Assembly (NCBI GenBank): GCA_000004985.1
Contig: GG738995.1
Source: Naegleria gruberi
Taxonomy: Eukaryota
DNA length: 13,371 bases
Reading direction: 5' to 3' (one strand)
Below the pieces are notes generated by a model, which saw only the letters and a list, made by a program, of their open reading frames with translations, did not search any database and had not been told where the DNA came from. The position numbers and the translations under genes are program-made. Positions 1 to 13,371 of this stretch are shown one piece after another (position 1 is the stretch's first letter; each line of letters begins with the position of its first letter).

Positions 1-141
1 AAACACACATGCTTTTACATCTCAACACTTGGTAGATGTGTGTTGTATTTTTTGAAAATGTTTCAACAACAATTTATTTCGCGAAAGGTTTTGTGAGCCT
101 TAAAGTGTTGTTGATGGCTTTTTAGAATCACATGTATTTAT

Positions 142-281
142 TGCATGCATGTGGTGAAGCATCATGATGATGATCTAATTGTTTGTTTGATGCATGTATC
201 AAACTTGTAATCCATTGCATGCATCTAATAACACATCCATTCAACCTTCACATGCCGAATCATCATGGTTAAACATGCATG
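142..281. promoter_or_regulatory. Cluster of TGCATG-core motifs in the 5' flank of the large + ORF, including three 8-bp perfect palindromes (TGCATGCA/CATGCATG)
   Basis: Read directly from the sequence. tgcatgcatg at 142-151, tgcatg at 191-196, tgcatgcat at 216-224, catgcatg at 274-281. That is five TGCATG hexamers in 140 bp, against an expectation of ~0.05 for this base composition. CATGCATG and TGCATGCA are each their own reverse complement. TGCAT is the reported recognition core of APSES-type fungal regulators (Efg1 / Phd1 / Sok2 class). Confidence 0.35.
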
Positions 282-676
282 TCTATCATTTGTATTCGAA
301 TGGCTAATAGTCGGGCAATGGGAAATTAGAGAACTATTATTGAGAATAATTCCACTTATTTAATACTAACCACTTATAGACTTTCTAATTTAATCATTTG
401 ATTACATAACAACTCTCGCCAAGGCTTCATGACTTTGGTTTACAACAAAAAAATCATCAACAAGCATCTACATTCAATCCAGTTATTACATTGACCTATC
501 AATCTCAAATATCAATAATAGGTATGTTGATTGAAAACAACAACACTGTATCTATTGGAATGAATGTACATTTGGCATGTTCTATAATTGGTAATCAAAC
601 TTATTAAAGAAAGTCAAATAACAGCAACAACAAGAGTGATTAATTTTATTAAAAAATAATCAAGAACACATATCCA

Positions 677-3600
677 ATGAAGAAGAACCAGAATTCCAAC
701 AACATGTCATTCATTGATGAAACTAGCAATGTTACAAAGAAAGCAAAAGTGAAAAAGAGAAATAAGGAATTGAAAATTAAACAATCGAGATTGAGAAAAC
801 CATTACAAAATGATAATTTATTGAAAAATTATTTTGAATTTGATAAGCAACAATTAACAGAAAGTGATTTGACTATTTACAAAATTATTAATNNNNNNNN
901 NNNNNNNNNNNNNNNNNNNNNNNNNNNNNNNNNNNNNNNNNNNNNNNNNNNNNNNNNNNNNNNNNNNNNNNNNNNNNNNNNNNNNNNNNNNNNNNNNNNN
1001 NNNNNNNNNNNNNNNNNNNNNNNNNNNNNNNNNNNNNNNNNNNNNNNNNNNNNNNNNNNNNNNNNNNNNNNNNNNNNNNNNNNNNNNNNNNNNNNNNNNN
1101 NNNNNNNNNNNNNNNNNNNNNNNNNNNNNNNNNNNNNNNNNNNNNNNNNNNNNNNNNNNNNNNNNNNNNNNNNNNNNNNNNNNNNNNNNNNNNNNNNNNN
1201 NNNNNNNNNNNNNNNNNNNNNNNNNNNNNNNNNNNNNNNNNNNNNNNNNNNNNNNNNNNNNNNNNNNNNNNNNNNNNNNNNNNNNNNNNNNNNNNNNNNN
1301 NNNNNNNNNNNNNNNNNNNNNNNNNNNNNNNNNNNNNNNNNNNNNNNNNNNNNNNNNNNNNNNNNNNNNNNNNNNNNNNNNNNNNNNNNNNNNNNNNNNN
1401 NNNNNNNNNNNNNNNNNNNNNNNNNNNNNNNNNNNNNNNNNNNNNNNNNNNNNNNNNNNNNNNNNNNNNNNNNNNNNNNNNNNNNNNNNNNNNNNNNNNN
1501 NNNNNNNNNNNNNNNNNNNNNNNNNNNNNNNNNNNNNNNNNNNNNNNNNNNNNNNNNNNNNNNNNNNNNNNNNNNNNNNNNNNNNNNNNNNNNNNNNNNN
1601 NNNNNNNNNNNNNNNNNNNNNNNNNNNNNNNNNNNNNNNNNNNNNNNNNNNNNNNNNNNNNNNNNNNNNNNNNNNNNNNNNNNNNNNNNNNNNNNNNNNN
1701 NNNNNNNNNNNNNNNNNNNNNNNNNNNNNNNNNNNNNNNNNNNNNNNNNNNNNNNNNNNNNNNNNNNNNNNNNNNNNNNNNNNNNNNNNNNNNNNNNNNN
1801 NNNNNNNNNNNNNNNNNNNNNNNNNNNNNNNNNNNNNNNNNNNNNNNNNNNNNNNNNNNNNNNNNNNNNNNNNNNNNNNNNNNNNNNNNNNNNNNNNNNN
1901 NNNNNNNNNNNNNNNNNNNNNNNNNNNNNNNNNNNNNNNNNNNNNNNNNNNNNNNNNNNNNNNNNNNNNNNNNNNNNNNNNNNNNNNNNNNNNNNNNNNN
2001 NNNNNNNNNNNNNNNNNNNNNNNNNNNNNNNNNNNNNNNNNNNNNNNNNNNNNNNNNNNNNNNNNNNNNNNNNNNNNNNNNNNNNNNNNNNNNNNNNNNN
2101 NNNNNNNNNNNNNNNNNNNNNNNNNNNNNNNNNNNNNNNNNNNNNNNNNNNNNNNNNNNNNNNNNNNNNNNNNNNNNNNNNNNNNNNNNNNNNNNNNNNN
2201 NNNNNNNNNNNNNNNNNNNNNNNNNNNNNNNNNNNNNNNNNNNNNNNNNNNNNNNNNNNNNNNNNNNNNNNNNNNNNNNNNNNNNNNNNNNNNNNNNNNN
2301 NNNNNNNNNNNNNNNNNNNNNNNNNNNNNNNNNNNNNNNNNNNNNNNNNNNNNNNNNNNNNNNNNNNNNNNNNNNNNNNNNNNNNNNNNNNNNNNNNNNN
2401 NNNNNNNNNNNNNNNNNNNNNNNNNNNNNNNNNNNNNNNNNNNNNNNNNNNNNNNNNNNNNNNNNNNNNNNNNNNNNNNNNNNNNNNNNNNNNNNNNNNN
2501 NNNNNNNNNNNNNNNNNNNNNNNNNNNNNNNNNNNNNNNNNNNNNNNNNNNNNNNNNNNNNNNNNNNNNNNNNNNNNNNNNNNNNNNNNNNNNNNNNNNN
2601 NNNNNNNNNNNNNNNNNNNNNNNNNNNNNNNNNNNNNNNNNNNNNNNNNNNNNNNNNNNNNNNNNNNNNNNNNNNNNNNNNNNNNNNNNNNNNNNNNNNN
2701 NNNNNNNNNNNNNNNNNNNNNNNNNNNNNNNNNNNNNNNNNNNNNNNNNNNNNNNNNNNNNNNNNNNNNNNNNNNNNNNNNNNNNNNNNNNNNNNNNNNN
2801 NNNNNNNNNNNNNNNNNNNNNNNNNNNNNNNNNNNNNNNNNNNNNNNNNNNNNNNNNNNNNNNNNNNNNNNNNNNNNNNNNNNNNNNNNNNNNNNNNNNN
2901 NNNNNNNNNNNNNNNNNNNNNNNNNNNNNNNNNNNNNNNNNNNNNNNNNNNNNNNNNNNNNNNNNNNNNNNNNNNNNNNNNNNNNNNNNNNNNNNNNNNN
3001 NNNNNNNNNNNNNNNNNNNNNNNNNNNNNNNNNNNNNNNNNNNNNNNNNNNNNNNNNNNNNNNNNNNNNNNNNNNNNNNNNNNNNNNNNNNNNNNNNNNN
3101 NNNNNNNNNNNNNNNNNNNNNNNNNNNNNNNNNNNNNNNNNNNNNNNNNNNNNNNNNNNNNNNNNNNNNNNNNNNNNNNNNNNNNNNNNNNNNNNNNNNN
3201 NNNNNNNNNNNNNNNNNNNNNNNNNNNNNNNNNNNNNNNNNNNNNNNNNNNNNNNNNNNNNNNNNNNNNNNNNNNNNNNNNNNNNNNNNNNNNNNNNNNN
3301 NNNNNNNNNNNNNNNNNNNNNNNNNNNNNNNNNNNNNNNNNNNNNNNNNNNNNNNNNNNNNNNNNNNNNNNNNNNNNNNNNNNNNNNNNNNNNNNNNNNN
3401 NNNNNNNNNNNNNNNNNNNNNNNNNNNNNNNNNNNNNNNNNNNNNNNNNNNNNNNNNNNNNNNNNNNNNNNNNNNNNNNNNNNNNNNNNNNNNNNNNNNN
3501 NNNNNNNNNNNNNNNNNNNNNNNNNNNNNNNNNNNNNNNNNNNNNNNNNNNNNNNNNNNNNNNNNNNNNNNNNNNNNNNNNNNNNNNNNNNNNNNNNNNN

Positions 3601-5476
3601 NNNNNNNNNNNNNNNNNNNNNNNNNNNNNNNNNNNNNNNNNNNNNNNNNNNNNNNNNNNNNNNNNNNNNNNNNNNNNNNNNNNNNNNNNNNNNNNNNNNN
3701 NNNNNNNNNNNNNNNNNNNNNNNNNNNNNNNNNNNNNNNNNNNNNNNNNNNNNNNNNNNNNNNNNNNNNNNNNNNNNNNNNNNNNNNNNNNNNNNNNNNN
3801 NNNNNNNNNNNNNNNNNNNNNNNNNNNNNNNNNNNNNNNNNNNNNNNNNNNNNNNNNNNNNNNNNNNNNNNNNNNNNNNNNNNNNNNNNNNNNNNNNNNN
3901 NNNNNNNNNNNNNNNNNNNNNNNNNNNNNNNNNNNNNNNNNNNNNNNNNNNNNNNNNNNNNNNNNNNNNNNNNNNNNNNNNNNNNNNNNNNNNNNNNNNN
4001 NNNNNNNNNNNNNNNNNNNNNNNNNNNNNNNNNNNNNNNNNNNNNNNNNNNNNNNNNNNNNNNNNNNNNNNNNNNNNNNNNNNNNNNNNNNNNNNNNNNN
4101 NNNNNNNNNNNNNNNNNNNNNNNNNNNNNNNNNNNNNNNNNNNNNNNNNNNNNNNNNNNNNNNNNNNNNNNNNNNNNNNNNNNNNNNNNNNNNNNNNNNN
4201 NNNNNNNNNNNNNNNNNNNNNNNNNNNNNNNNNNNNNNNNNNNNNNNNNNNNNNNNNNNNNNNNNNNNNNNNNNNNNNNNNNNNNNNNNNNNNNNNNNNN
4301 NNNNNNNNNNNNNNNNNNNNNNNNNNNNNNNNNNNNNNNNNNNNNNNNNNNNNNNNNNNNNNNNNNNNNNNNNNNNNNNNNNNNNNNNNNNNNNNNNNNN
4401 NNNNNNNNNNNNNNNNNNNNNNNNNNNNNNNNNNNNNNNNNNNNNNNNNNNNNNNNNNNNNNNNNNNNNNNNNNNNNNNNNNNNNNNNNNNNNNNNNNNN
4501 NNNNNNNNNNNNNNNNNNNNNNNNNNNNNNNNNNNNNNNNNNNNNNNNNNNNNNNNNNNNNNNNNNNNNNNNNNNNNNNNNNNNNNNNNNNNNNNNNNNN
4601 NNNNNNNNNNNNNNNNNNNNNNNNNNNNNNNNNNNNNNNNNNNNNNNNNNNNNNNNNNNNNNNNNNNNNNNNNNNNNNNNNNNNNNNNNNNNNNNNNNNN
4701 NNNNNNNNNNNNNNNNNNNNNNNNNNNNNNNNNNNNNNNNNNNNNNNNNNNNNNNNNNNNNNNNNNNNNNNNNNNNNNNNNNNNNNNNNNNNNNNNNNNN
4801 NNNNNNNNNNNNNNNNNNNNNNNNNNNNNNNNNNNNNNNNNNNNNNNNNNNNNNNNNNNNNNNNNNNNNNNNNNNNNNNNNNNNNNNNNNNNNNNNNNNN
4901 NNNNNNNNNNNNNNNNNNNNNNNNNNNNNNNNNNNNNNNNNNNNNNNNNNNNNNNNNNNNNNNNNNNNNNNNNNNNNNNNNNNNNNNNNNNNNNNNNNNN
5001 NNNNNNNNNNNNNNNNNNNNNNNNNNNNNNNNNNNNNNNNNNNNNNNNNNNNNNNNNNNNNNNNNNNNNNNNNNNNNNNNNNNNNNNNNNNNNNNNNNNN
5101 NNNNNNNNNNNNNNNNNNNNNNNNNNNNNNNNNNNNNNNNNNNNNNNNNNNNNNNNNNNNNNNNNNNNNNNNNNNNNNNNNNNNNNNNNNNNNNNNNNNN
5201 NNNNNNNNNNNNNNNNNNNNNNNNNNNNNNNNNNNNNNNNNNNNNNNNNNNNNNNNNNNNNNNNNNNNNNNNNNNNNNNNNNNNNNNNNNNNNNNNNNNN
5301 NNNNNNNNNNNNNNNNNNNNNNNNNNNNNNNNNNNNNNNNNNNNNNNNNNNNNNNNNNNNNNNNNNNNNNNNNNNNNNNNNNNNNNNNNNNNNNNNNNNN
5401 NNNNNNNNNNNNNNNNNNNNNNNNNNNNNNNNNNNNNNNNNNNNNNTCAATACTATTAAAAAACAGTTTATTCTAA
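677..5476 (+). CDS. Large + strand ORF, partially visible. Only the N-terminal 72 codons (677-892) and a putative last 10 codons (5447-5476) are readable, and the rest is N-masked. The N-terminus is Lys/Arg-rich and NLS-like (KKAKVKKRNKELKIKQSRLRKP). Product unknown.
   Basis: ATG at 677 is the first ATG after an in-frame TAA at 650-652. The frame stays open for 72 codons until the mask begins. Mask length (4554) is divisible by 3, so the track frame continues to TAA at 5474-5476, but frame continuity across the mask cannot be verified. Composition (K/N/S/Q-rich) matches the other genes here. Confidence 0.45.
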   Translation: MKKNQNSNNMSFIDETSNVTKKAKVKKRNKELKIKQSRLRKPLQNDNLLKNYFEFDKQQLTESDLTIYKIINXXXXXXXXXXXXXXXXXXXXXXXXXXXXXXXXXXXXXXXXXXXXXXXXXXXXXXXXXXXXXXXXXXXXXXXXXXXXXXXXXXXXXXXXXXXXXXXXXXXXXXXXXXXXXXXXXXXXXXXXXXXXXXXXXXXXXXXXXXXXXXXXXXXXXXXXXXXXXXXXXXXXXXXXXXXXXXXXXXXXXXXXXXXXXXXXXXXXXXXXXXXXXXXXXXXXXXXXXXXXXXXXXXXXXXXXXXXXXXXXXXXXXXXXXXXXXXXXXXXXXXXXXXXXXXXXXXXXXXXXXXXXXXXXXXXXXXXXXXXXXXXXXXXXXXXXXXXXXXXXXXXXXXXXXXXXXXXXXXXXXXXXXXXXXXXXXXXXXXXXXXXXXXXXXXXXXXXXXXXXXXXXXXXXXXXXXXXXXXXXXXXXXXXXXXXXXXXXXXXXXXXXXXXXXXXXXXXXXXXXXXXXXXXXXXXXXXXXXXXXXXXXXXXXXXXXXXXXXXXXXXXXXXXXXXXXXXXXXXXXXXXXXXXXXXXXXXXXXXXXXXXXXXXXXXXXXXXXXXXXXXXXXXXXXXXXXXXXXXXXXXXXXXXXXXXXXXXXXXXXXXXXXXXXXXXXXXXXXXXXXXXXXXXXXXXXXXXXXXXXXXXXXXXXXXXXXXXXXXXXXXXXXXXXXXXXXXXXXXXXXXXXXXXXXXXXXXXXXXXXXXXXXXXXXXXXXXXXXXXXXXXXXXXXXXXXXXXXXXXXXXXXXXXXXXXXXXXXXXXXXXXXXXXXXXXXXXXXXXXXXXXXXXXXXXXXXXXXXXXXXXXXXXXXXXXXXXXXXXXXXXXXXXXXXXXXXXXXXXXXXXXXXXXXXXXXXXXXXXXXXXXXXXXXXXXXXXXXXXXXXXXXXXXXXXXXXXXXXXXXXXXXXXXXXXXXXXXXXXXXXXXXXXXXXXXXXXXXXXXXXXXXXXXXXXXXXXXXXXXXXXXXXXXXXXXXXXXXXXXXXXXXXXXXXXXXXXXXXXXXXXXXXXXXXXXXXXXXXXXXXXXXXXXXXXXXXXXXXXXXXXXXXXXXXXXXXXXXXXXXXXXXXXXXXXXXXXXXXXXXXXXXXXXXXXXXXXXXXXXXXXXXXXXXXXXXXXXXXXXXXXXXXXXXXXXXXXXXXXXXXXXXXXXXXXXXXXXXXXXXXXXXXXXXXXXXXXXXXXXXXXXXXXXXXXXXXXXXXXXXXXXXXXXXXXXXXXXXXXXXXXXXXXXXXXXXXXXXXXXXXXXXXXXXXXXXXXXXXXXXXXXXXXXXXXXXXXXXXXXXXXXXXXXXXXXXXXXXXXXXXXXXXXXXXXXXXXXXXXXXXXXXXXXXXXXXXXXXXXXXXXXXXXXXXXXXXXXXXXXXXXXXXXXXXXXXXXXXXXXXXXXXXXXXXXXXXXXXXXXXXXXXXXXXXXXXXXXXXXXXXXXXXXXXXXXXXXXXXXXXXXXXXXXXXXXXXXXXXXXXXXXXXXXXXXXXXXXXXXXXXXXXXXXXXXXXXXXXXXXXXXXXXXXXXXXXXXXXXXXXXXXXXXXXXXXXXXXXXXSILLKNSLF
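893..5446. other. N-masked block, 4554 nt. No sequence information.
   Basis: Run of n. Length is a multiple of 3. Confidence 0.99.
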
Positions 5477-6526
5477 ATGAAATGTCCAAACTGGAAAGTG
5501 AAATTCCATTTGAGTTTGTGCTGGATTTGTATTGGCTGAATTCTTTCTCTTTTGATATTTTCTTCTTCTTTTCAAATGTTTTGGATTTGAAATTACAATA
5601 CAATTTTTGAGTGGAGTTTTGAATGTTGTTGATAATGAACTGTTATTACCAATTGAGGATACATTACTTGTAGATGATGAGGAGGATGAAATTGAGATTT
5701 TTCTCTTTTCTGATTCGAATGAAGATACATTAGAAATCTTTCTCTTTCTCTTTAGAATACGATTATCATTGAATGTATTGTTTACATTAGTTTGTTGTTG
5801 GAGTGGCATCATGGATGTTTCAATTGATGATGATGGTGGTGATTGATCCACATATTGTTGATAAGGATTCTTAATGCTCATCAGAAATTGATATGATTCT
5901 AAATTGGGTAAAAGTACCTTATCAGCAGTGTCAGTATTAGAAATGGTATTGGTCAGGCTATTTTCGTTATGGTTATTGAATGGTTGAGGAGGTGAGGTGT
6001 TAAGAGTCAGAGATAATGTTTCTGTTGGTGATAGGAACAGTTGAGTTGATGGTTGAGGTGATGGAAATACAATATGGGATTTGGATAAGTGTGGTGGAGT
6101 GTCCTTCATATCATCATCATGATCATCAATAGGATTCATAACAGTTGAGCTGATGTTAGTACATTGGATATTATTGAAGGCTGACATTTGTTGAATAGAA
6201 GGCTTGTCATTAGGCTTTCTATTAAATAATTGTTGCTTTGGATTTGTCATCATCTTTAATAATTCCCAACTCTGCATAAAATCAATAACATCAAGATTCA
6301 GACTTGGTTCAACACATTGATTGTTAATTGAGTAGTTTGAGAATGATGATGAAAATTGAGTGACCATTCCACAAAGAACATCAACTGTACAGGTATGAGC
6401 AGGAGAGGAATATTCATTTATCCAACTTGAAGTCGAGTTATTGTTCATCATAATGTTTGTTTTTTTGAGAATATTCATTGAATATTTCTTCTGCATAAAC
6501 TCCAAAGAGAATTGCATCTCGCCCAA
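5447..6526. repeat. Tandem duplication, copy 1: gene A plus 21 nt of its 3' flank
   Basis: Colinear with 6878-7727. The offset is 1431 nt at the stop codons and 1419 nt at the MQSW codon. The 3'-flank fragments also match: actattaaaaaacagtttattc vs atattattaaaaaaacaatttattc. Confidence 0.8.
5468..6517 (-). CDS. Gene A, the complete tandem paralog. 349 aa, S/T/N/Q-rich protein with a bipartite-NLS-like KRKRKISNVSSFESEKRK motif and a C-terminal basic cluster KHLKRRRKYQKRK, ending ...MEFHFPVWTFHLE. Function unknown, probably nuclear.
   Basis: Long open frame on the minus strand, with stop TAA at 5470-5468. The track's start at 6526 is TTG, and the first ATG is at 6517-6515 (MQFSLEF...). An in-frame TGA lies 4 codons upstream of the TTG. 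The protein is ~75% identical to the visible part of gene B, and every indel between them is a multiple of 3 nt. This shows the frame is under coding constraint. Confidence 0.75.
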   Translation of the reverse strand: MQFSLEFMQKKYSMNILKKTNIMMNNNSTSSWINEYSSPAHTCTVDVLCGMVTQFSSSFSNYSINNQCVEPSLNLDVIDFMQSWELLKMMTNPKQQLFNRKPNDKPSIQQMSAFNNIQCTNISSTVMNPIDDHDDDMKDTPPHLSKSHIVFPSPQPSTQLFLSPTETLSLTLNTSPPQPFNNHNENSLTNTISNTDTADKVLLPNLESYQFLMSIKNPYQQYVDQSPPSSSIETSMMPLQQQTNVNNTFNDNRILKRKRKISNVSSFESEKRKISISSSSSSTSNVSSIGNNSSLSTTFKTPLKNCIVISNPKHLKRRRKYQKRKNSANTNPAQTQMEFHFPVWTFHLE

Positions 6527-6686
6527 TTTATTCTCTCATATTTCCAATACTTGATGTACTTGAAGAATAATGTTAGTAATTGAGGTCCTTAAAAATACAA
6601 AATCCTTAAACAACTATGCTGTGGCACTCCTTCTTAATAGAATGTCAGTAAGTGTTAGGGTAAATTCTGGTTCATCGTATTTCGAA

Positions 6687-6692
6687 ATTATA
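6687..6692 (-). promoter_or_regulatory. TATAAT on the minus strand, ~170 bp upstream of gene A's ATG
   Basis: Plus-strand attata at 6687-6692. It is the only TATA-like element in the 381-bp gap between the B stop and the A start. Confidence 0.2.
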
Positions 6693-6839
6693 CAATCTCA
6701 CTATTACTTGATCATAAATTGTATATTCTTTACAGAAGTTTATTTTCACTTTCATTATTTAATTCAATAAAATTGAAAATTGAAGATGAATTTAATAAAT
6801 TATCTGCTTCTTCAAGTGGTAATGAATAATTATCTTGTT

Positions 6840-6901
6840 GAATATTAAATTATTCGGACACACAGAGAATATAAAACAAATATTATTAAAAAAACAATTT
6901 A
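6840..6901 (-). terminator. Putative 3'-end formation signals of gene B
   Basis: Minus-strand sense reads ...TTTCATTTAGAATAAATTGTTTTTTTAATAATATTTGTTTTATATTCTCTGTG. AATAAA overlaps the stop codon and is followed by a TTTTATAT (TATATA-type) efficiency-like element. This is the yeast-type poly(A) signal pattern. Confidence 0.3.
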
Positions 6902-7727
6902 TTCTAAATGAAAAGTCCAAACTGGAAAGTGAAATTCCATTTGAGTTTGAGCAGGATTTGTATTGGCTGAATTCTTTCTCTTTTGATATTTTCTTCTTCT
7001 TTTCAAATGTTTTGGATTTGAAATTACAATACAATTATTGAATGATTGTTGTGAGTGTACATTTGTTGATAATGAACTATTATTACCAATTGAGGATGAA
7101 TTACTTGAACATGTTGTAGGTGGTGTGGTGGATGAAATTGAGGTTTTTCTCTTTTCTGATTCGAATGAAGATACATTAGAAATCTTTCTCTTTCTCTTTA
7201 GAATACGATTATCATCCTTCTTGTTGAATGTATTGTTTACATTAGTTTGTTGTTGGAGTGACATCATGGATATATCATTTGATGGTGGTGGTGATTGATC
7301 ATAATGTTCATGATAAGGATTCTTGGGAAATTGATATGATTCTAAATTGGTTAAAAGTACCTTATCAGCAGTGTCAGTATTAGAAATGGTATTGGCCAGC
7401 CTATTTTCAATAGCATTAGCATTGAATGGTTGCTGATGAGGAGATGGTGATGTGTTAAGTGTCAGAAGAGATAATGTCTCAGTTGATGATGGTAATACAA
7501 TATGGCATGTGGATGAGTGTGATGGAGTGCACTTAATATCAGCATCAATAGAATTCATAACAGTTGAGGTGATTTTAGTACATTGGATATTATTGAAGGC
7601 TGACATTTGTTGAATAGAAGGCTTGTCAAAAGGCTTTCTATTAAATAATTGTTGCTTTGGAGTTGTCATCATCTTTAATAATTCCCAACTCTGCATAAAC
7701 TCAATAACATCAAGATTTAGACTGTCA
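6878..7727. repeat. Tandem duplication, copy 2: visible part of gene B plus its 3' flank. Continues into mask 2.
   Basis: Same alignment as copy 1. Confidence 0.8.
6899..7727 (-). CDS. Gene B, the tandem paralog of gene A. The C-terminal 276 codons are visible and the 5' end runs into mask 2. Same architecture as A: conserved FMQSWELLKMMT.PKQQLFNRKP block, ANTISNTDTADKVLL block, KRKRK-X10-KRK, and an identical 45-aa C-terminus.
   Basis: Stop TAA at 6901-6899. The frame is open all the way to the mask edge (…DSLNLDVIEFMQSWELLK…). It is codon-colinear with gene A, with in-frame indels only. The track's start at 7696 is merely the first visible ATG. Homology to A residues 70-83 continues upstream of it. 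Confidence 0.7.
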
Positions 7728-10700
7728 NNNNNNNNNNNNNNNNNNNNNNNNNNNNNNNNNNNNNNNNNNNNNNNNNNNNNNNNNNNNNNNNNNNNNNNNN
7801 NNNNNNNNNNNNNNNNNNNNNNNNNNNNNNNNNNNNNNNNNNNNNNNNNNNNNNNNNNNNNNNNNNNNNNNNNNNNNNNNNNNNNNNNNNNNNNNNNNNN
7901 NNNNNNNNNNNNNNNNNNNNNNNNNNNNNNNNNNNNNNNNNNNNNNNNNNNNNNNNNNNNNNNNNNNNNNNNNNNNNNNNNNNNNNNNNNNNNNNNNNNN
8001 NNNNNNNNNNNNNNNNNNNNNNNNNNNNNNNNNNNNNNNNNNNNNNNNNNNNNNNNNNNNNNNNNNNNNNNNNNNNNNNNNNNNNNNNNNNNNNNNNNNN
8101 NNNNNNNNNNNNNNNNNNNNNNNNNNNNNNNNNNNNNNNNNNNNNNNNNNNNNNNNNNNNNNNNNNNNNNNNNNNNNNNNNNNNNNNNNNNNNNNNNNNN
8201 NNNNNNNNNNNNNNNNNNNNNNNNNNNNNNNNNNNNNNNNNNNNNNNNNNNNNNNNNNNNNNNNNNNNNNNNNNNNNNNNNNNNNNNNNNNNNNNNNNNN
8301 NNNNNNNNNNNNNNNNNNNNNNNNNNNNNNNNNNNNNNNNNNNNNNNNNNNNNNNNNNNNNNNNNNNNNNNNNNNNNNNNNNNNNNNNNNNNNNNNNNNN
8401 NNNNNNNNNNNNNNNNNNNNNNNNNNNNNNNNNNNNNNNNNNNNNNNNNNNNNNNNNNNNNNNNNNNNNNNNNNNNNNNNNNNNNNNNNNNNNNNNNNNN
8501 NNNNNNNNNNNNNNNNNNNNNNNNNNNNNNNNNNNNNNNNNNNNNNNNNNNNNNNNNNNNNNNNNNNNNNNNNNNNNNNNNNNNNNNNNNNNNNNNNNNN
8601 NNNNNNNNNNNNNNNNNNNNNNNNNNNNNNNNNNNNNNNNNNNNNNNNNNNNNNNNNNNNNNNNNNNNNNNNNNNNNNNNNNNNNNNNNNNNNNNNNNNN
8701 NNNNNNNNNNNNNNNNNNNNNNNNNNNNNNNNNNNNNNNNNNNNNNNNNNNNNNNNNNNNNNNNNNNNNNNNNNNNNNNNNNNNNNNNNNNNNNNNNNNN
8801 NNNNNNNNNNNNNNNNNNNNNNNNNNNNNNNNNNNNNNNNNNNNNNNNNNNNNNNNNNNNNNNNNNNNNNNNNNNNNNNNNNNNNNNNNNNNNNNNNNNN
8901 NNNNNNNNNNNNNNNNNNNNNNNNNNNNNNNNNNNNNNNNNNNNNNNNNNNNNNNNNNNNNNNNNNNNNNNNNNNNNNNNNNNNNNNNNNNNNNNNNNNN
9001 NNNNNNNNNNNNNNNNNNNNNNNNNNNNNNNNNNNNNNNNNNNNNNNNNNNNNNNNNNNNNNNNNNNNNNNNNNNNNNNNNNNNNNNNNNNNNNNNNNNN
9101 NNNNNNNNNNNNNNNNNNNNNNNNNNNNNNNNNNNNNNNNNNNNNNNNNNNNNNNNNNNNNNNNNNNNNNNNNNNNNNNNNNNNNNNNNNNNNNNNNNNN
9201 NNNNNNNNNNNNNNNNNNNNNNNNNNNNNNNNNNNNNNNNNNNNNNNNNNNNNNNNNNNNNNNNNNNNNNNNNNNNNNNNNNNNNNNNNNNNNNNNNNNN
9301 NNNNNNNNNNNNNNNNNNNNNNNNNNNNNNNNNNNNNNNNNNNNNNNNNNNNNNNNNNNNNNNNNNNNNNNNNNNNNNNNNNNNNNNNNNNNNNNNNNNN
9401 NNNNNNNNNNNNNNNNNNNNNNNNNNNNNNNNNNNNNNNNNNNNNNNNNNNNNNNNNNNNNNNNNNNNNNNNNNNNNNNNNNNNNNNNNNNNNNNNNNNN
9501 NNNNNNNNNNNNNNNNNNNNNNNNNNNNNNNNNNNNNNNNNNNNNNNNNNNNNNNNNNNNNNNNNNNNNNNNNNNNNNNNNNNNNNNNNNNNNNNNNNNN
9601 NNNNNNNNNNNNNNNNNNNNNNNNNNNNNNNNNNNNNNNNNNNNNNNNNNNNNNNNNNNNNNNNNNNNNNNNNNNNNNNNNNNNNNNNNNNNNNNNNNNN
9701 NNNNNNNNNNNNNNNNNNNNNNNNNNNNNNNNNNNNNNNNNNNNNNNNNNNNNNNNNNNNNNNNNNNNNNNNNNNNNNNNNNNNNNNNNNNNNNNNNNNN
9801 NNNNNNNNNNNNNNNNNNNNNNNNNNNNNNNNNNNNNNNNNNNNNNNNNNNNNNNNNNNNNNNNNNNNNNNNNNNNNNNNNNNNNNNNNNNNNNNNNNNN
9901 NNNNNNNNNNNNNNNNNNNNNNNNNNNNNNNNNNNNNNNNNNNNNNNNNNNNNNNNNNNNNNNNNNNNNNNNNNNNNNNNNNNNNNNNNNNNNNNNNNNN
10001 NNNNNNNNNNNNNNNNNNNNNNNNNNNNNNNNNNNNNNNNNNNNNNNNNNNNNNNNNNNNNNNNNNNNNNNNNNNNNNNNNNNNNNNNNNNNNNNNNNNN
10101 NNNNNNNNNNNNNNNNNNNNNNNNNNNNNNNNNNNNNNNNNNNNNNNNNNNNNNNNNNNNNNNNNNNNNNNNNNNNNNNNNNNNNNNNNNNNNNNNNNNN
10201 NNNNNNNNNNNNNNNNNNNNNNNNNNNNNNNNNNNNNNNNNNNNNNNNNNNNNNNNNNNNNNNNNNNNNNNNNNNNNNNNNNNNNNNNNNNNNNNNNNNN
10301 NNNNNNNNNNNNNNNNNNNNNNNNNNNNNNNNNNNNNNNNNNNNNNNNNNNNNNNNNNNNNNNNNNNNNNNNNNNNNNNNNNNNNNNNNNNNNNNNNNNN
10401 NNNNNNNNNNNNNNNNNNNNNNNNNNNNNNNNNNNNNNNNNNNNNNNNNNNNNNNNNNNNNNNNNNNNNNNNNNNNNNNNNNNNNNNNNNNNNNNNNNNN
10501 NNNNNNNNNNNNNNNNNNNNNNNNNNNNNNNNNNNNNNNNNNNNNNNNNNNNNNNNNNNNNNNNNNNNNNNNNNNNNNNNNNNNNNNNNNNNNNNNNNNN
10601 NNNNNNNNNNNNNNNNNNNNNNNNNNNNNNNNNNNNNNNNNNNNNNNNNNNNNNNNNNNNNNNNNNNNNNNNNNNNNNNNNNNNNNNNNNNNNNNNNNNN

Positions 10701-11837
10701 NNNNNNNNNNNNNNNNNNNNNNNNNNNNNNNNNNNNNNNNNNNNNNNNNNNNNNNNNNNNNNNNNNNNNNNNNNNNNNNNNNNNNNNNNNNNNNNNNNNN
10801 NNNNNNNNNNNNNNNNNNNNNNNNNNNNNNNNNNNNNNNNNNNNNNNNNNNNNNNNNNNNNNNNNNNNNNNNNNNNNNNNNNNNNNNNNNNNNNNNNNNN
10901 NNNNNNNNNNNNNNNNNNNNNNNNNNNNNNNNNNNNNNNNNNNNNNNNNNNNNNNNNNNNNNNNNNNNNNNNNNNNNNNNNNNNNNNNNNNNNNNNNNNN
11001 NNNNNNNNNNNNNNNNNNNNNNNNNNNNNNNNNNNNNNNNNNNNNNNNNNNNNNNNNNNNNNNNNNNNNNNNNNNNNNNNNNNNNNNNNNNNNNNNNNNN
11101 NNNNNNNNNNNNNNNNNNNNNNNNNNNNNNNNNNNNNNNNNNNNNNNNNNNNNNNNNNNNNNNNNNNNNNNNNNNNNNNNNNNNNNNNNNNNNNNNNNNN
11201 NNNNNNNNNNNNNNNNNNNNNNNNNNNNNNNNNNNNNNNNNNNNNNNNNNNNNNNNNNNNNNNNNNNNNNNNNNNNNNNNNNNNNNNNNNNNNNNNNNNN
11301 NNNNNNNNNNNNNNNNNNNNNNNNNNNNNNNNNNNNNNNNNNNNNNNNNNNNNNNNNNNNNNNNNNNNNNNNNNNNNNNNNNNNNNNNNNNNNNNNNNNN
11401 NNNNNNNNNNNNNNNNNNNNNNNNNNNNNNNNNNNNNNNNNNNNNNNNNNNNNNNNNNNNNNNNNNNNNNNNNNNNNNNNNNNNNNNNNNNNNNNNNNNN
11501 NNNNNNNNNNNNNNNNNNNNNNNNNNNNNNNNNNNNNNNNNNNNNNNNNNNNNNNNNNNNNNNNNNNNNNNNNNNNNNNNNNNNNNNNNNNNNNNNNNNN
11601 NNNNNNNNNNNNNNNNNNNNNNNNNNNNNNNNNNNNNNNNNNNNNNNNNNNNNNNNNNNNNNNNNNNNNNNNNNNNNNNNNNNNNNNNNNNNNNNNNNNN
11701 NNNNNNNNNNNNNNNNNNNNNNNNNNNNNNNNNNNNNNNNNNNNNNNNNNNNNNNNNNNNNNNNNNNNNNNNNNNNNNNNNNNNNNNNNNNNNNNNNNNN
11801 NNNNNNNNNNNNNNNNNNNNNNNNNNNNNNNNNNNNN
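7728..11837. other. N-masked block, 4110 nt. No sequence information.
   Basis: Run of n. Length is a multiple of 3. Confidence 0.99.
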
Positions 11838-11891
11838 AATAATTACTGTAAAGTCACCATTTCATCTTGTAGTTATTCTAATAGTAAGTAA
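11838..11891 (+). CDS. Possible last 17 codons (…NNYCKVTISSCSYSNSK*) of a + strand gene whose body lies inside mask 2
   Basis: The frame is open from the mask edge to TAA at 11889-11891. A TGTATAAAA poly(A) efficiency-type element follows ~80 nt downstream. The frame cannot be verified across the mask. Confidence 0.2.
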   Translation, partial: NNYCKVTISSCSYSNSK

Positions 11892-11965
11892 TATTGGTTT
11901 TGTTGTGCATTGATGTTATGGATTGATGATGAAATTTCCAACAATGACTTGAAGAATGTTCGTAC

Positions 11966-11980
11966 TTTGTATAAAAATTG
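11966..11980 (+). terminator. TGTATAAAA / TATAAA yeast-type poly(A) efficiency/positioning element
   Basis: tttgtataaaaattg, read from the sequence, ~80 nt after the TAA at 11891. Confidence 0.2.
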
Positions 11981-12066
11981 ACTTTTGTGATTTGTTTACT
12001 TGATTTGAATGATCATAAAAGATAGTACACCCTACCTACCTTGAACAACTTTACAATATTTTCTAA

Positions 12067-12082
12067 TACTACTACTACTAAC
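12067..12082. repeat. (TAC)4 microsatellite ending in TACTAAC
   Basis: tactactactactaac, read directly. Confidence 0.7.
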
Positions 12083-13371
12083 AATTAAACCAAAGAAGTT
12101 GACAATGTCTCCTTTACAGTCAATTAATATTAATTGTTTGGAATTGCAACTACGCAATTAGAGTAATTTTTTTGCTATTTGAAATATTGTTCCTTTTAAC
12201 AGAATGCTGTTGTTGGGTGAGATTTTTATAGTACGGTTCATTTCAGGCAAGGAAATCTATCAACTTGTTGTGGAAAGGTTCAAATTGATGCTTAATAGAT
12301 AGGTTGTGTGGATTGTTTCCAATTATTAAAATTAGAGGATGCTAGCATTTTCAAACTGTATTGGAAAATCTATTTATGGTTGTAGATATATTGGAGAATC
12401 AGTTAAAGGCACACTTGGTACTAAAAGTATTACAACGGACATCTTTGCAATTCTTTCAATGAGAATTATGGACAAGATGGTTTCCTTACCACAAGTTTAT
12501 TTTGAATAATATGTTCGACGGAGCAATTTCTCAAGTATTTAACTAGTACATTGAACTAATAATCACTGTTAGTGGTTTGTTGAAAATACTGTTTGGTTTA
12601 TCGAACAAAAATAATCACAACCACTACTTGATAGCGTAAGTATGTAATAATGCCAACACCGTTTACAAACGCATAATGCATATGGTTCACAGCTACATAG
12701 GTAAGTTATGCAGTCATATTTCCTCCAACATAGTGTATTCTTGCTACCAAACACAACTATTCGCTAATAAAATTGTTGATGGTAACTGTTGTTGTGGATG
12801 TGGGTGAATCATTAATTATCGAAATTTGTTGTTTTGGTGATTGTGCAGTTAATCAGGTCTTAGAGTATCATTGCCCGTTCCGTCGGTAAATTGTGTAAGG
12901 AAGATGCTTATCACACTATTCAGAATAGAGTTGGTTATGGTTGTATCATCGAATTATCTACAATACGCATGATTCTCAATAGTTTCGTTAATTGAGTGTA
13001 ATTATGTGGTACTAAATGGTATCTTGTAAATTATCAGGGTTTATATGGTTGATAAATAAGAACTATGCCAATTGTACTATATTTCATTTGTTTTGCTAAG
13101 TTGTTGTCGAATATCATTAGGAATCTCGCTCGTAGGTAACACAATTTTTAACACAAAAACGAATTTAACAGTTTTAGTCTCTTGTTGTGTTTTAAGTGAT
13201 ATGGAGATGATTATGAAGTTATTTACAATGCAAATATTTATGTATAGTAGATCTATTTACTGTGTGGAAAAAATCTAGATCCCCAAGCAATGGAGCTTTC
13301 TTTCCAAATAAAAGAATAAGAGTATTGAATGTTGGCTTATCACCAGCACCAACAATAACTTTCTACATTGT

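What the first reader, a model, noticed from the sequence alone, without database searches (positions are those of the whole stretch)
142..281. Dense array of palindromic TGCATGCA/CATGCATG sites 400-530 bp upstream of the large + ORF
There are five TGCATG hexamers in 140 bp (chance expectation ~0.05). Three of them form perfect 8-bp palindromes spaced ~60-70 bp apart, and a fourth (191-196, tgcatgta) is a degenerate copy. Flanking CACATG and CATGTG at 129-134 and 148-153 add a nested inverted repeat. TGCAT is the recognition core of APSES-type regulators (Efg1, Phd1, Sok2). The plant RY element is the identical CATGCATG but is not relevant to a fungus. This looks like a multimerised binding platform for a dimeric factor. 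It would place the downstream large gene in a morphogenesis or biofilm-type regulon if the host is a Candida-like yeast.
Basis: partly seen in the sequence, partly recalled or inferred. Interest (0 to 1): 0.55.

Follow-up and report, generated by a model that had tools for sequence, protein, structure and literature searches.

The report
Palindrome cluster upstream of Naegleria gene
A tight cluster of TGCATGCA-type palindromes really does sit in non-coding DNA, but the host is the amoeba Naegleria gruberi, not a yeast, and the "large gene" downstream is an assembly gap hiding a small orphan gene, so this is at most an untested candidate regulatory element.

Summary
The motif array is real. TGCATG starts at 142, 146, 191, 216 and 276 and nowhere else in the 4,707 readable bases. 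Three sites carry perfect 8-bp palindromes. A 3rd-order Markov null predicts about 0.02 such three-octamer clusters per 41-Mb genome.

The framing is wrong on two counts.
- **Organism.** The window is a complete 13,371-bp scaffold of Naegleria gruberi, not a Candida-like yeast. An annotated N. gruberi protein, on a contig listed as exactly 13,371 bp long, matches the window exactly.
- **The "large + ORF".** It is read through a 4,554-N run, most simply an assembly gap. Only 72 codons are real. They are identical to the start of a 187-aa N. gruberi orphan protein (NAEGRDRAFT_53199).

APSES factors are essentially fungal, so the Efg1/Phd1/Sok2 reading fails.

My best explanation, at moderate confidence, is a cluster of binding sites for an unidentified dimeric DNA-binding factor in the 5' intergenic region. 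The sequence matches the targets of ApiAP2 factors in apicomplexans and B3 factors in plants. No such factor is known in Naegleria.

Three paralogue promoters lack the motif, and no orthologous or allelic DNA could be fetched. A neutral origin is not excluded. Interest is low to moderate.

The parts
142..151 (.). Site 1: TGCATGCATG. It contains both 8-bp palindromes, TGCATGCA (142-149) and CATGCATG (144-151). Extended context is ATTGCATGCAT, shared exactly with site 3.
   Evidence: D3
185..204 (.). Site 2: ATGCATGT core (190-197; TGCATG at 191-196). It sits inside a 20-bp near-perfect dyad, GTTTGAT-GCATGT-ATCAAAC, with perfect 7-bp arms.
   Evidence: I15
216..224 (.). Site 3: TGCATGCAT, with the perfect palindrome TGCATGCA at 216-223. 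The 11-mer ATTGCATGCAT (214-224) is identical to 140-150.
   Evidence: D3
249..255 (.). Weak fifth site: CACATGC, which carries the CATGC core only.
273..282 (.). Site 4: ACATGCATGT, a 10-bp perfect palindrome with CATGCATG at 274-281. ATGCATGT is shared with site 2.
   Evidence: D2
129..153 (.). CACATG (129-134) and CATGTG (148-153), a 6-bp inverted repeat bracketing site 1.
156..166 (+). GAAGCATCATG, repeated as GAATCATCATG at 257-267. This is an accessory CATG-containing direct repeat. ATCATGAT at 161-168 is another 8-bp palindrome.
   Evidence: (D14)
1..676 (.). Non-coding 5' region holding the cluster. It has stops in all six frames. It shows no similarity to the rest of the scaffold or to seven Naegleria-like contigs. 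There is no tandem repeat and no Rfam, tRNA or RNA-structure signal.
677..892 (+). The real part of the downstream gene: 72 codons, 72/72 identical to the N-terminus of N. gruberi NAEGRDRAFT_53199 (P0009, 187 aa). The rest lies in the gap.
893..5446 (.). A run of 4,554 N, most simply an assembly gap. This run created the apparent 1,599-aa ORF.

Best explanation
The array is a homotypic cluster of four to five binding sites (core GCATGC / ATGCATG) for an unidentified sequence-specific DNA-binding protein of Naegleria gruberi. The palindromic sites suggest that it binds as a dimer.

The cluster lies in the non-coding region 396-535 bp upstream of a small Naegleria-specific orphan gene, an allele or near-identical copy of NAEGRDRAFT_53199. 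It would act as an upstream regulatory module for that gene, or for an unseen neighbour beyond the scaffold end.

Shown: the sites, their statistical excess, the non-coding context, and the identities of the organism and of the downstream gene.

Inferred: that a protein binds the sites, that it is a dimer, and which gene is regulated.
For: - All TGCATG/CATGCA hexamers of the 4,707 readable bases fall within 142-281.
- The expectation is 0.02-0.05 per 140 bp per strand.
- 20 Mb of Markov-3 simulation gave no cluster of 4 or more hexamer sites or 3 or more octamer sites. By Poisson estimate from the simulated site rates, that is about 0.02 three-octamer clusters per 41-Mb genome.
- The region is non-coding, is not a tandem repeat, and is not a structured RNA (z = -1.2 and -0.9).
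- The motif cores are perfectly conserved between sites: the 11-mer ATTGCATGCAT occurs twice and the 8-mer ATGCATGT occurs twice. Their flanks are close to random. With the cores held fixed, unit-versus-unit alignment gives p about 0.055. This pattern is expected if the cores are under constraint.
- Site 2 sits in a 20-bp dyad with perfect 7-bp arms.
- The same octamer is a proven protein-binding site in other lineages: PfAP2-EXP/PF14_0633 and TgAP2XII-8 (PMC2965767; PMC11358496), and plant B3 factors on RY CATGCATG (PMC3813988).
Against: - There is no comparative support. The allelic, orthologous and closest paralogous promoters could not be fetched.
- The three paralogue promoters that could be read, from a Naegleria-like metagenome organism, contain no TGCATG/CATGCA at all.
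- No Naegleria factor with this specificity is known, and no paper links Naegleria to the motif or to AP2/B3 domains.
- The A-B-A-B layout of the sites hints at an old ~80-bp tandem duplication. That would halve the number of independent sites. Pairs of octamers occur about 6 times per genome by chance.
- Each 8-mer is a two-unit tetranucleotide repeat, which 4-bp slippage can create.
- A coding-region cluster of five CATGCA in 228 bp in L002 shows that hexamer clusters arise for unrelated reasons.
- If the first stage scanned a whole genome for any palindrome, the look-elsewhere effect is large.
Confidence: 0.45

Rival explanations
1. Neutral sequence with no function. A CATG-rich patch acquired (CATG)2/(TGCA)2 octamers through 4-bp slippage, or through an old ~80-bp tandem duplication of a chance pair of sites. 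It was then picked out by a reader looking for anything unusual.
For: - Sites alternate as types A-B-A-B (140-163 / 190-217 / 214-237 / 275-302), with 74- and 85-bp offsets.
- The unit-versus-unit alignment is marginally better than shuffles, p about 0.055.
- Clusters of 2 or more octamers occur about 3 times per 20 Mb by chance.
- Paralogue promoters lack the motif.
- A CATGCA cluster occurs inside a CDS in L002.
Against: - Three octamer sites plus two more GCATG sites in 140 bp are far beyond the Markov null, at about 0.02 per genome.
- Tandem Repeats Finder finds no repeat.
- If a duplication did occur, the cores stayed 100% identical while the flanks randomised. That is not neutral behaviour.
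Confidence: 0.3
2. Part of a dispersed repeat or mobile element, for example subterminal protein-binding repeats. The motif density would then reflect a repeat family rather than a gene-specific promoter.
For: - The window is a small unplaced scaffold with two gaps. Such pieces are typically rich in duplicated sequence.
- The locus carries tandemly duplicated genes: 83% identity over 896 bp.
Against: - Bases 1-676 have no significant similarity to the rest of the scaffold or to about 18 kb of Naegleria-like contigs.
- No terminal inverted repeats flank the cluster.
- No viral or metagenomic relatives of the adjacent genes were found.
- The adjacent gene is a single annotated locus on a 244-kb scaffold.
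Confidence: 0.08
3. An RNA-level or 3'-end element. The region would be transcribed, either as the 3' UTR of an upstream + strand gene ending near base 96 or as a long 5' UTR. The UGCAUG/GCAUG repeats would be bound by an RNA-binding protein.
For: - Frame +1 is open from base 1 to a stop at 94-96, so an upstream gene could end there.
- GCAUG is a known RNA-protein recognition core in animals (own knowledge).
Against: - The 31-codon open stretch is short and not protein-like, and it could not be searched because it is below the tool's minimum length.
- Palindromy matters for double-stranded DNA, not for single-stranded RNA recognition.
- There is no folding signal on either strand.
- No such system is known in Naegleria.
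Confidence: 0.06
4. One reading: an APSES-type (Efg1/Phd1/Sok2) binding platform that places a large yeast gene in a morphogenesis or biofilm regulon.
For: APSES regulators bind TGCA-core motifs (PMC4862756), and the cluster contains TGCAT.
Against: - The organism is Naegleria gruberi.
- KilA-N/APSES domains are reported only from fungi among eukaryotes, apart from Trichomonas and two insects.
- The enriched core is CATGC/GCATG rather than TGCAT alone.
- The 'large gene' is a gap artefact.
Confidence: 0.01

Closest known systems
ApiAP2 TGCATGCA element (PfAP2-EXP/PF14_0633, Cryptosporidium cgd2_3490, Toxoplasma AP2XII-8 ribosomal-protein regulon motif)
   Same: The octamer TGCATGCA is identical. 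It lies in AT-rich upstream non-coding DNA of a protist. Its palindromic character fits dimeric binding.
   Different: The host is a heterolobosean, not an alveolate. No AP2-domain factor is documented in Naegleria, whose expanded family is the C6 finger. Genome-wide enrichment and regulon association, which define the apicomplexan motif, could not be tested here.
Plant RY/Sph repeat (CATGCATG), bound by B3-domain factors ABI3/FUS3/LEC2/VAL
   Same: The octamer CATGCATG is identical. As in the 4xRY tetramer reporter and probe, it occurs in several copies over a short stretch.
   Different: The B3 domain is, to my knowledge, a plant and green-algal family, and none is documented in Naegleria. 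The spacing here (26-74 bp) is wider than in the synthetic RY tetramers. There is no seed-type regulatory context.
Fungal APSES (Efg1/Phd1/Sok2/StuA) TGCA-core sites
   Same: They share the TGCA(T) core.
   Different: The host lacks the family as far as is known. The full conserved core here is ATGCATG/GCATGC, which is longer and symmetric.
Generic homotypic clusters of transcription-factor binding sites in eukaryotic promoters and enhancers
   Same: There are 3 or more copies of one short motif within about 150 bp of non-coding DNA upstream of a gene, far above the background rate.
   Different: No binding, accessibility, expression or conservation evidence is available for this one.

Membership tests
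APSES (Efg1/Phd1/Sok2) target promoter | The host is a fungus that encodes a KilA-N/APSES DNA-binding protein. | tested here: not met
   The host was identified as Naegleria gruberi. P0007 matches window 6899-7606(-) exactly, and its contig is listed as 13,371 bp, the length of the window. P0009 is 72/72 identical to window 677-892. The literature reports eukaryotic KilA-N only in fungi, Trichomonas and two insects. The N. gruberi proteome itself was not scanned.
APSES (Efg1/Phd1/Sok2) target promoter | The downstream gene is a morphogenesis- or biofilm-type target. | tested here: not met
   The downstream gene is a ~187-aa Naegleria-only orphan with no Pfam or PDB match. The 1,599-aa ORF is an N-run artefact.
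ApiAP2 TGCATGCA element | An exact TGCATGCA octamer lies in upstream non-coding DNA. | tested here: met
   TGCATGCA is at 142 and 216. The region is non-coding.
ApiAP2 TGCATGCA element | The host encodes AP2-domain factors with this specificity. | not testable with these tools
   The Naegleria proteome and genome are not searchable here. The literature names the C6 finger as the main Naegleria family. No paper pairs Naegleria with an AP2 or B3 domain.
ApiAP2 TGCATGCA element | The motif is enriched genome-wide upstream of a co-regulated gene set. | not testable with these tools
   Only 4.7 kb of N. gruberi and about 18 kb of Naegleria-like contigs were available. That background contains 15 hexamer hits and no upstream cluster.
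Plant RY/Sph (B3) element | A CATGCATG core is present, often repeated. | tested here: met
   CATGCATG is at 144 and 274.
Plant RY/Sph (B3) element | The host encodes B3-domain factors. | not testable with these tools
   The limitation is the same as for AP2. There is no literature link.
Homotypic transcription-factor binding-site cluster (cis-regulatory module) | The number of copies of one motif in about 150 bp is statistically excessive. | tested here: met
Homotypic transcription-factor binding-site cluster (cis-regulatory module) | The sites are conserved in orthologous, allelic or paralogous promoters. | tested here: inconclusive
   Three distant paralogue promoters (L002, L005, L006) lack the motif. 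Allelic and orthologous promoters could not be obtained.
Homotypic transcription-factor binding-site cluster (cis-regulatory module) | Protein binding or factor-dependent regulation has been demonstrated. | not testable with these tools
   This needs EMSA, DAP-seq, ATAC-seq or a reporter assay.
Tandem or dispersed repeat family | Head-to-tail copies, or further copies elsewhere. | tested here: inconclusive
   Tandem Repeats Finder finds nothing. No copy exists in the rest of the scaffold or in the held contigs. Unit-versus-unit similarity is weak, p about 0.055. Genome-wide copy number is untestable here.

The most novel reading that the evidence does not exclude
Naegleria, a discoban amoeboflagellate, uses a dimeric factor that recognises the same GCATGC/TGCATGCA palindrome as apicomplexan AP2 and plant B3 proteins. 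The factor could be an undetected AP2- or B3-like domain, or a convergent one such as a divergent C6 finger. This cluster would then be one of its enhancers, driving a lineage-specific orphan gene cluster.
Probability: 0.15. Interest if true: 0.45.

Novelty: new member of a known kind. Interest (0 to 1): 0.2.

Why it matters
Almost nothing is known about cis-regulation in Naegleria or any other heterolobosean. A validated motif with a cognate factor would therefore be a useful first handle. It would also bear on whether recognition of TGCATGCA is ancient or convergent across eukaryotic supergroups.

As it stands, the practical value is corrective. The window is a gapped N. gruberi scaffold, the long ORFs are N-run artefacts, and yeast-based regulatory inferences do not apply.

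Tried and rejected
- **Exact-protein look-ups** to fetch the allelic or paralogous N. gruberi loci (P0001, P0002, P0003, P0007, P0009) all failed, because this genome is not in the contig index.
- **Metagenome and viral scans** with both protein modules found no relatives. This argues against a viral or mobile origin but yielded no comparative DNA.
- **Paralogue loci** from a Naegleria-like metagenome (L001-L007) were fetched. Their promoters lack the motif, and no shared upstream k-mer beyond AT-rich noise was found.
- **RNA readings** were rejected. The only Rfam hit is sub-threshold (snR75, 17 bits against a cut-off of 40). There are no tRNAs, and fold z-scores are about -1.
- **Tandem repeat** was rejected by Tandem Repeats Finder. 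A MAFFT alignment of the two halves was out of register. A custom alignment test was marginal.
- **Bacterial promoter and terminator scan** was uninformative for a eukaryote.
- **Characterising the downstream gene family** gave no Pfam match, no meaningful PDB match (best hit E = 0.028) and an AlphaFold2 mean pLDDT of 56. I therefore ran no fold search.
- **Expression data**: no supplementary files were held for the Naegleria RNA-seq preprint.
- **The 31-aa open frame at the left edge** was too short for the protein search.
- **Literature searches** for Naegleria with the motif, or with AP2/B3, returned nothing.

Full report
**1. What is readable**

The window is 13,371 bases, but only 1-892, 5447-7727 and 11838-13371 are sequence, 4,707 bases in all. 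Bases 893-5446 and 7728-11837 are runs of N. The long ORFs listed mechanically (677..5476 +, 888..5603 -, 7623..11891 +) are almost entirely X, because they are read through those runs.

**2. The observation**

- TGCATG starts at 142, 146, 191, 216 and 276 on the + strand. CATGCA starts at 144, 218 and 274. Neither hexamer occurs anywhere else in the readable sequence.
- The independent sites are 142-151 (TGCATGCATG), 190-197 (ATGCATGT), 216-224 (TGCATGCAT) and 273-282 (ACATGCATGT). A weaker CACATGC lies at 249-255.
- Three sites carry a perfect 8-bp palindrome.
- Against about 18 kb of Naegleria-type background, the 126-290 segment holds 9 CATGC/GCATG pentamers (0.23 expected) and 10 CATG (0.69 expected).
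- In 20 Mb simulated from a 3rd-order model there were no clusters of 4 or more hexamer sites, none of 3 or more octamer sites, and three of 2 or more octamer sites per 140 bp.
- By Poisson estimate from the simulated site rates, a 41-Mb genome would hold roughly 1-2 four-hexamer clusters and about 0.02 three-octamer clusters.
- The array is therefore real and well beyond a compositional null. A scan over all possible palindromes and all windows of a genome would still weaken this.

**3. Organism and source**

- The minus-strand ORF 5468..6526 (349 aa from its first ATG) is 346/349 identical to N. gruberi NAEGRDRAFT_53197 (P0002).
- Cluster look-up showed that P0007 (EFC35884.1, NAEGRDRAFT_76456, 235 aa) lies on a contig of exactly 13,371 bp. 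It matches window 6899-7606(-) residue for residue.
- The window is therefore one complete small scaffold of the N. gruberi assembly, and the N runs are most simply its sequencing gaps.
- The gene models fit this reading. P0007 starts at the first Met after the gap. P0001, the related partial model on another small scaffold, is annotated as partial.
- The host is a heterolobosean amoeboflagellate, not a yeast.

**4. The downstream gene**

- The 72 real codons at 677-892 are 82% identical to the partial N. gruberi protein P0001.
- A full HMMER scan of 1.84 billion representatives found 21 relatives. Those whose source I looked up come from N. gruberi, N. lovaniensis or environmental metagenome contigs.
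- The best complete one, P0009 (EFC38202.1, NAEGRDRAFT_53199, 187 aa), is 72/72 identical to the window. It lies on the same 243,952-bp scaffold as P0002 and P0008.
- The true downstream gene is therefore a small protein of about 187 aa, whose remaining ~115 codons fall in the gap.
- The scaffold looks like an allelic or very recent copy of that region of the larger scaffold.
- The family has three conserved features:
  - an N-module, F(I/V)DET...RLRKxLQNxxLLxNYFE(W/F)...LTxYK;
  - a VTSEK motif;
  - in some members, a C-terminal LDLxDFIQS motif.
- P0008 (798 aa) fuses this N-module to the family of the window's minus-strand genes.
- There is no Pfam match and no meaningful PDB match. AlphaFold2 gives mean pLDDT 56, mostly disordered.
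- Nothing links this gene to morphogenesis, biofilm or any other known regulon.

**5. Context of the cluster**

- Bases 1-676 have stops in all frames. Only a 31-codon open stretch remains at the very left edge.
- There is no tandem repeat, no tRNA and no Rfam family. The single hit is 17 bits against a 40-bit cut-off.
- Neither strand folds better than shuffles, with z = -1.2 and -0.9.
- BLAST of 1-892 against the rest of the scaffold and seven Naegleria-like contigs matches only the coding part, 682-847.
- The cluster is therefore non-coding, apparently single-copy in what I can see, and not an RNA gene.

**6. Internal architecture**

- Sites 1 and 3 share the exact 11-mer ATTGCATGCAT. Sites 2 and 4 share ATGCATGT followed by weak similarity (D2 and D3).
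- This gives an A-B-A-B order with offsets of 74 and 85 bp.
- I aligned the two halves globally with the cores held fixed and the flanks shuffled. The score was 34 against 25.0 +/- 5.1, and 111 of 2,000 shuffles reached it.
- That is a hint of an old ~80-bp duplication, not a demonstration.
- If the duplication is real, the cores stayed identical while the flanks randomised, which favours constraint. It also means only two sites arose independently, which weakens the statistics.
- Site 2 lies in a 20-bp dyad, GTTTGAT-GCATGT-ATCAAAC.

**7. Comparative test**

- I could not obtain the allelic, orthologous or nearest paralogous promoters, because N. gruberi is not in the contig index. Both metagenome scans came back empty.
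- Five look-ups of family members from a Naegleria-like organism in public metagenomes gave contigs L002-L007.
- Three usable promoters were obtained: L002 1470-1979, L005 1-580 and L006 1-936. They contain no TGCATG/CATGCA and share no meaningful k-mer with the window's promoter.
- The cluster is therefore not a family-wide feature.
- L002 carries five CATGCA in 228 bp inside its coding region. This shows that hexamer clusters arise for unrelated reasons.

**8. Interpretation**

- The APSES reading fails on host. Eukaryotic KilA-N/APSES domains are reported only from fungi, Trichomonas and two insects (PMC4862756). The principal Naegleria transcription factor family is the C6 finger (PMC3537659).
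- By sequence, the closest known elements are two:
  - the ApiAP2 site TGCATGCA (PF14_0633/AP2-EXP, PMC2965767; AP2XII-8, PMC11358496);
  - the plant RY repeat CATGCATG, bound by B3 factors (PMC3813988).
- No paper connects Naegleria with the motif or with AP2/B3 domains.
- I therefore claim resemblance in how it may work, short palindromes bound by a dimeric factor and multimerised upstream of a gene. I do not claim membership of either system.
- My best explanation, at confidence about 0.45, is a homotypic binding-site cluster for an unidentified Naegleria factor.
- The main rival, at about 0.3, is neutral origin through slippage or duplication of a chance pair.
- A dispersed repeat (0.08), an RNA-level or 3'-end element (0.06) and the APSES reading (0.01) are minor. 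About 0.1 is left unassigned.

**9. Verdict**

The element is an ordinary kind of thing, a candidate cis-regulatory motif cluster, in an organism where such elements are uncharacterised. Its function is untested and cannot be tested with the data reachable here. Interest is 0.2.

Noticed in passing
window 893-5446 and 7728-11837: These are two N runs of 4,554 and 4,110 bases. The window length equals the listed contig length for the N. gruberi protein EFC35884.1, so the runs are most simply assembly gaps. All three ORFs above 1,400 aa in the mechanical list are artefacts of reading through N.
   Followed up: yes
window 5449-6304 vs 6879-7723 (minus-strand genes 5468..6526 and 6899..>7727): This is a tandem duplication, 83% identical over 896 bp, carrying two paralogous genes. 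Their C-termini are identical (KHLKRRRKYQKRKNSANTNPAQTQMEFHFPVWTFHLE). Copy 1 is 346/349 identical to NAEGRDRAFT_53197, and copy 2 is NAEGRDRAFT_76456.
   Followed up: partly
window 677-892 (+) together with 5468-7727 (-); proteins P0006, P0008, P0009-P0033: This is an orphan family found so far only in Naegleria and Naegleria-like metagenome contigs, built from short conserved motifs in otherwise low-complexity proteins. The motifs are FIDET...RLRKxLQNxxLLxNYFEW, VTSEK, and LDLxDFIQS / SLNLDVIDFMQSWELL. P0008 (798 aa) joins the N-module to the C-module that the window encodes on the opposite strand. There is no Pfam or PDB match, and AlphaFold2 gives pLDDT 56. The RxxL stretch resembles a destruction box, but that is only an impression.
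   Followed up: partly
L002 2487-2714: Five CATGCA hexamers, including one CATGCATG, lie within 228 bp inside the coding sequence of a family paralogue. They appear to come from ATG-CAx codon pairs. This is a useful caution that hexamer clusters need not be regulatory.
   Followed up: no
window 185-204: This is a 20-bp near-perfect dyad, GTTTGAT-GCATGT-ATCAAAC, centred on the 'degenerate' site. It is the longest symmetric element in the cluster.
   Followed up: partly
window 156-168 and 257-267: GAAGCATCATG and GAATCATCATG form a direct repeat 101 bp apart. The 8-bp palindrome ATCATGAT lies at 161-168. These add CATG-containing elements between the main sites.
   Followed up: no
window 11838-13371: These 1.5 kb have no ORF of 70 aa or more and no similarity to the other readable parts or to the held contigs. 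Their content is unknown.
   Followed up: no
window 5447-5476 vs 6886-6905: The few bases after the first gap resemble the sequence just downstream of the second minus-strand gene's stop codon. The apparent C-terminus of the 'large ORF' (SILLKNSLF*) is therefore simply the duplicated 3' flank of the minus-strand genes, read in the wrong strand and frame.
   Followed up: partly
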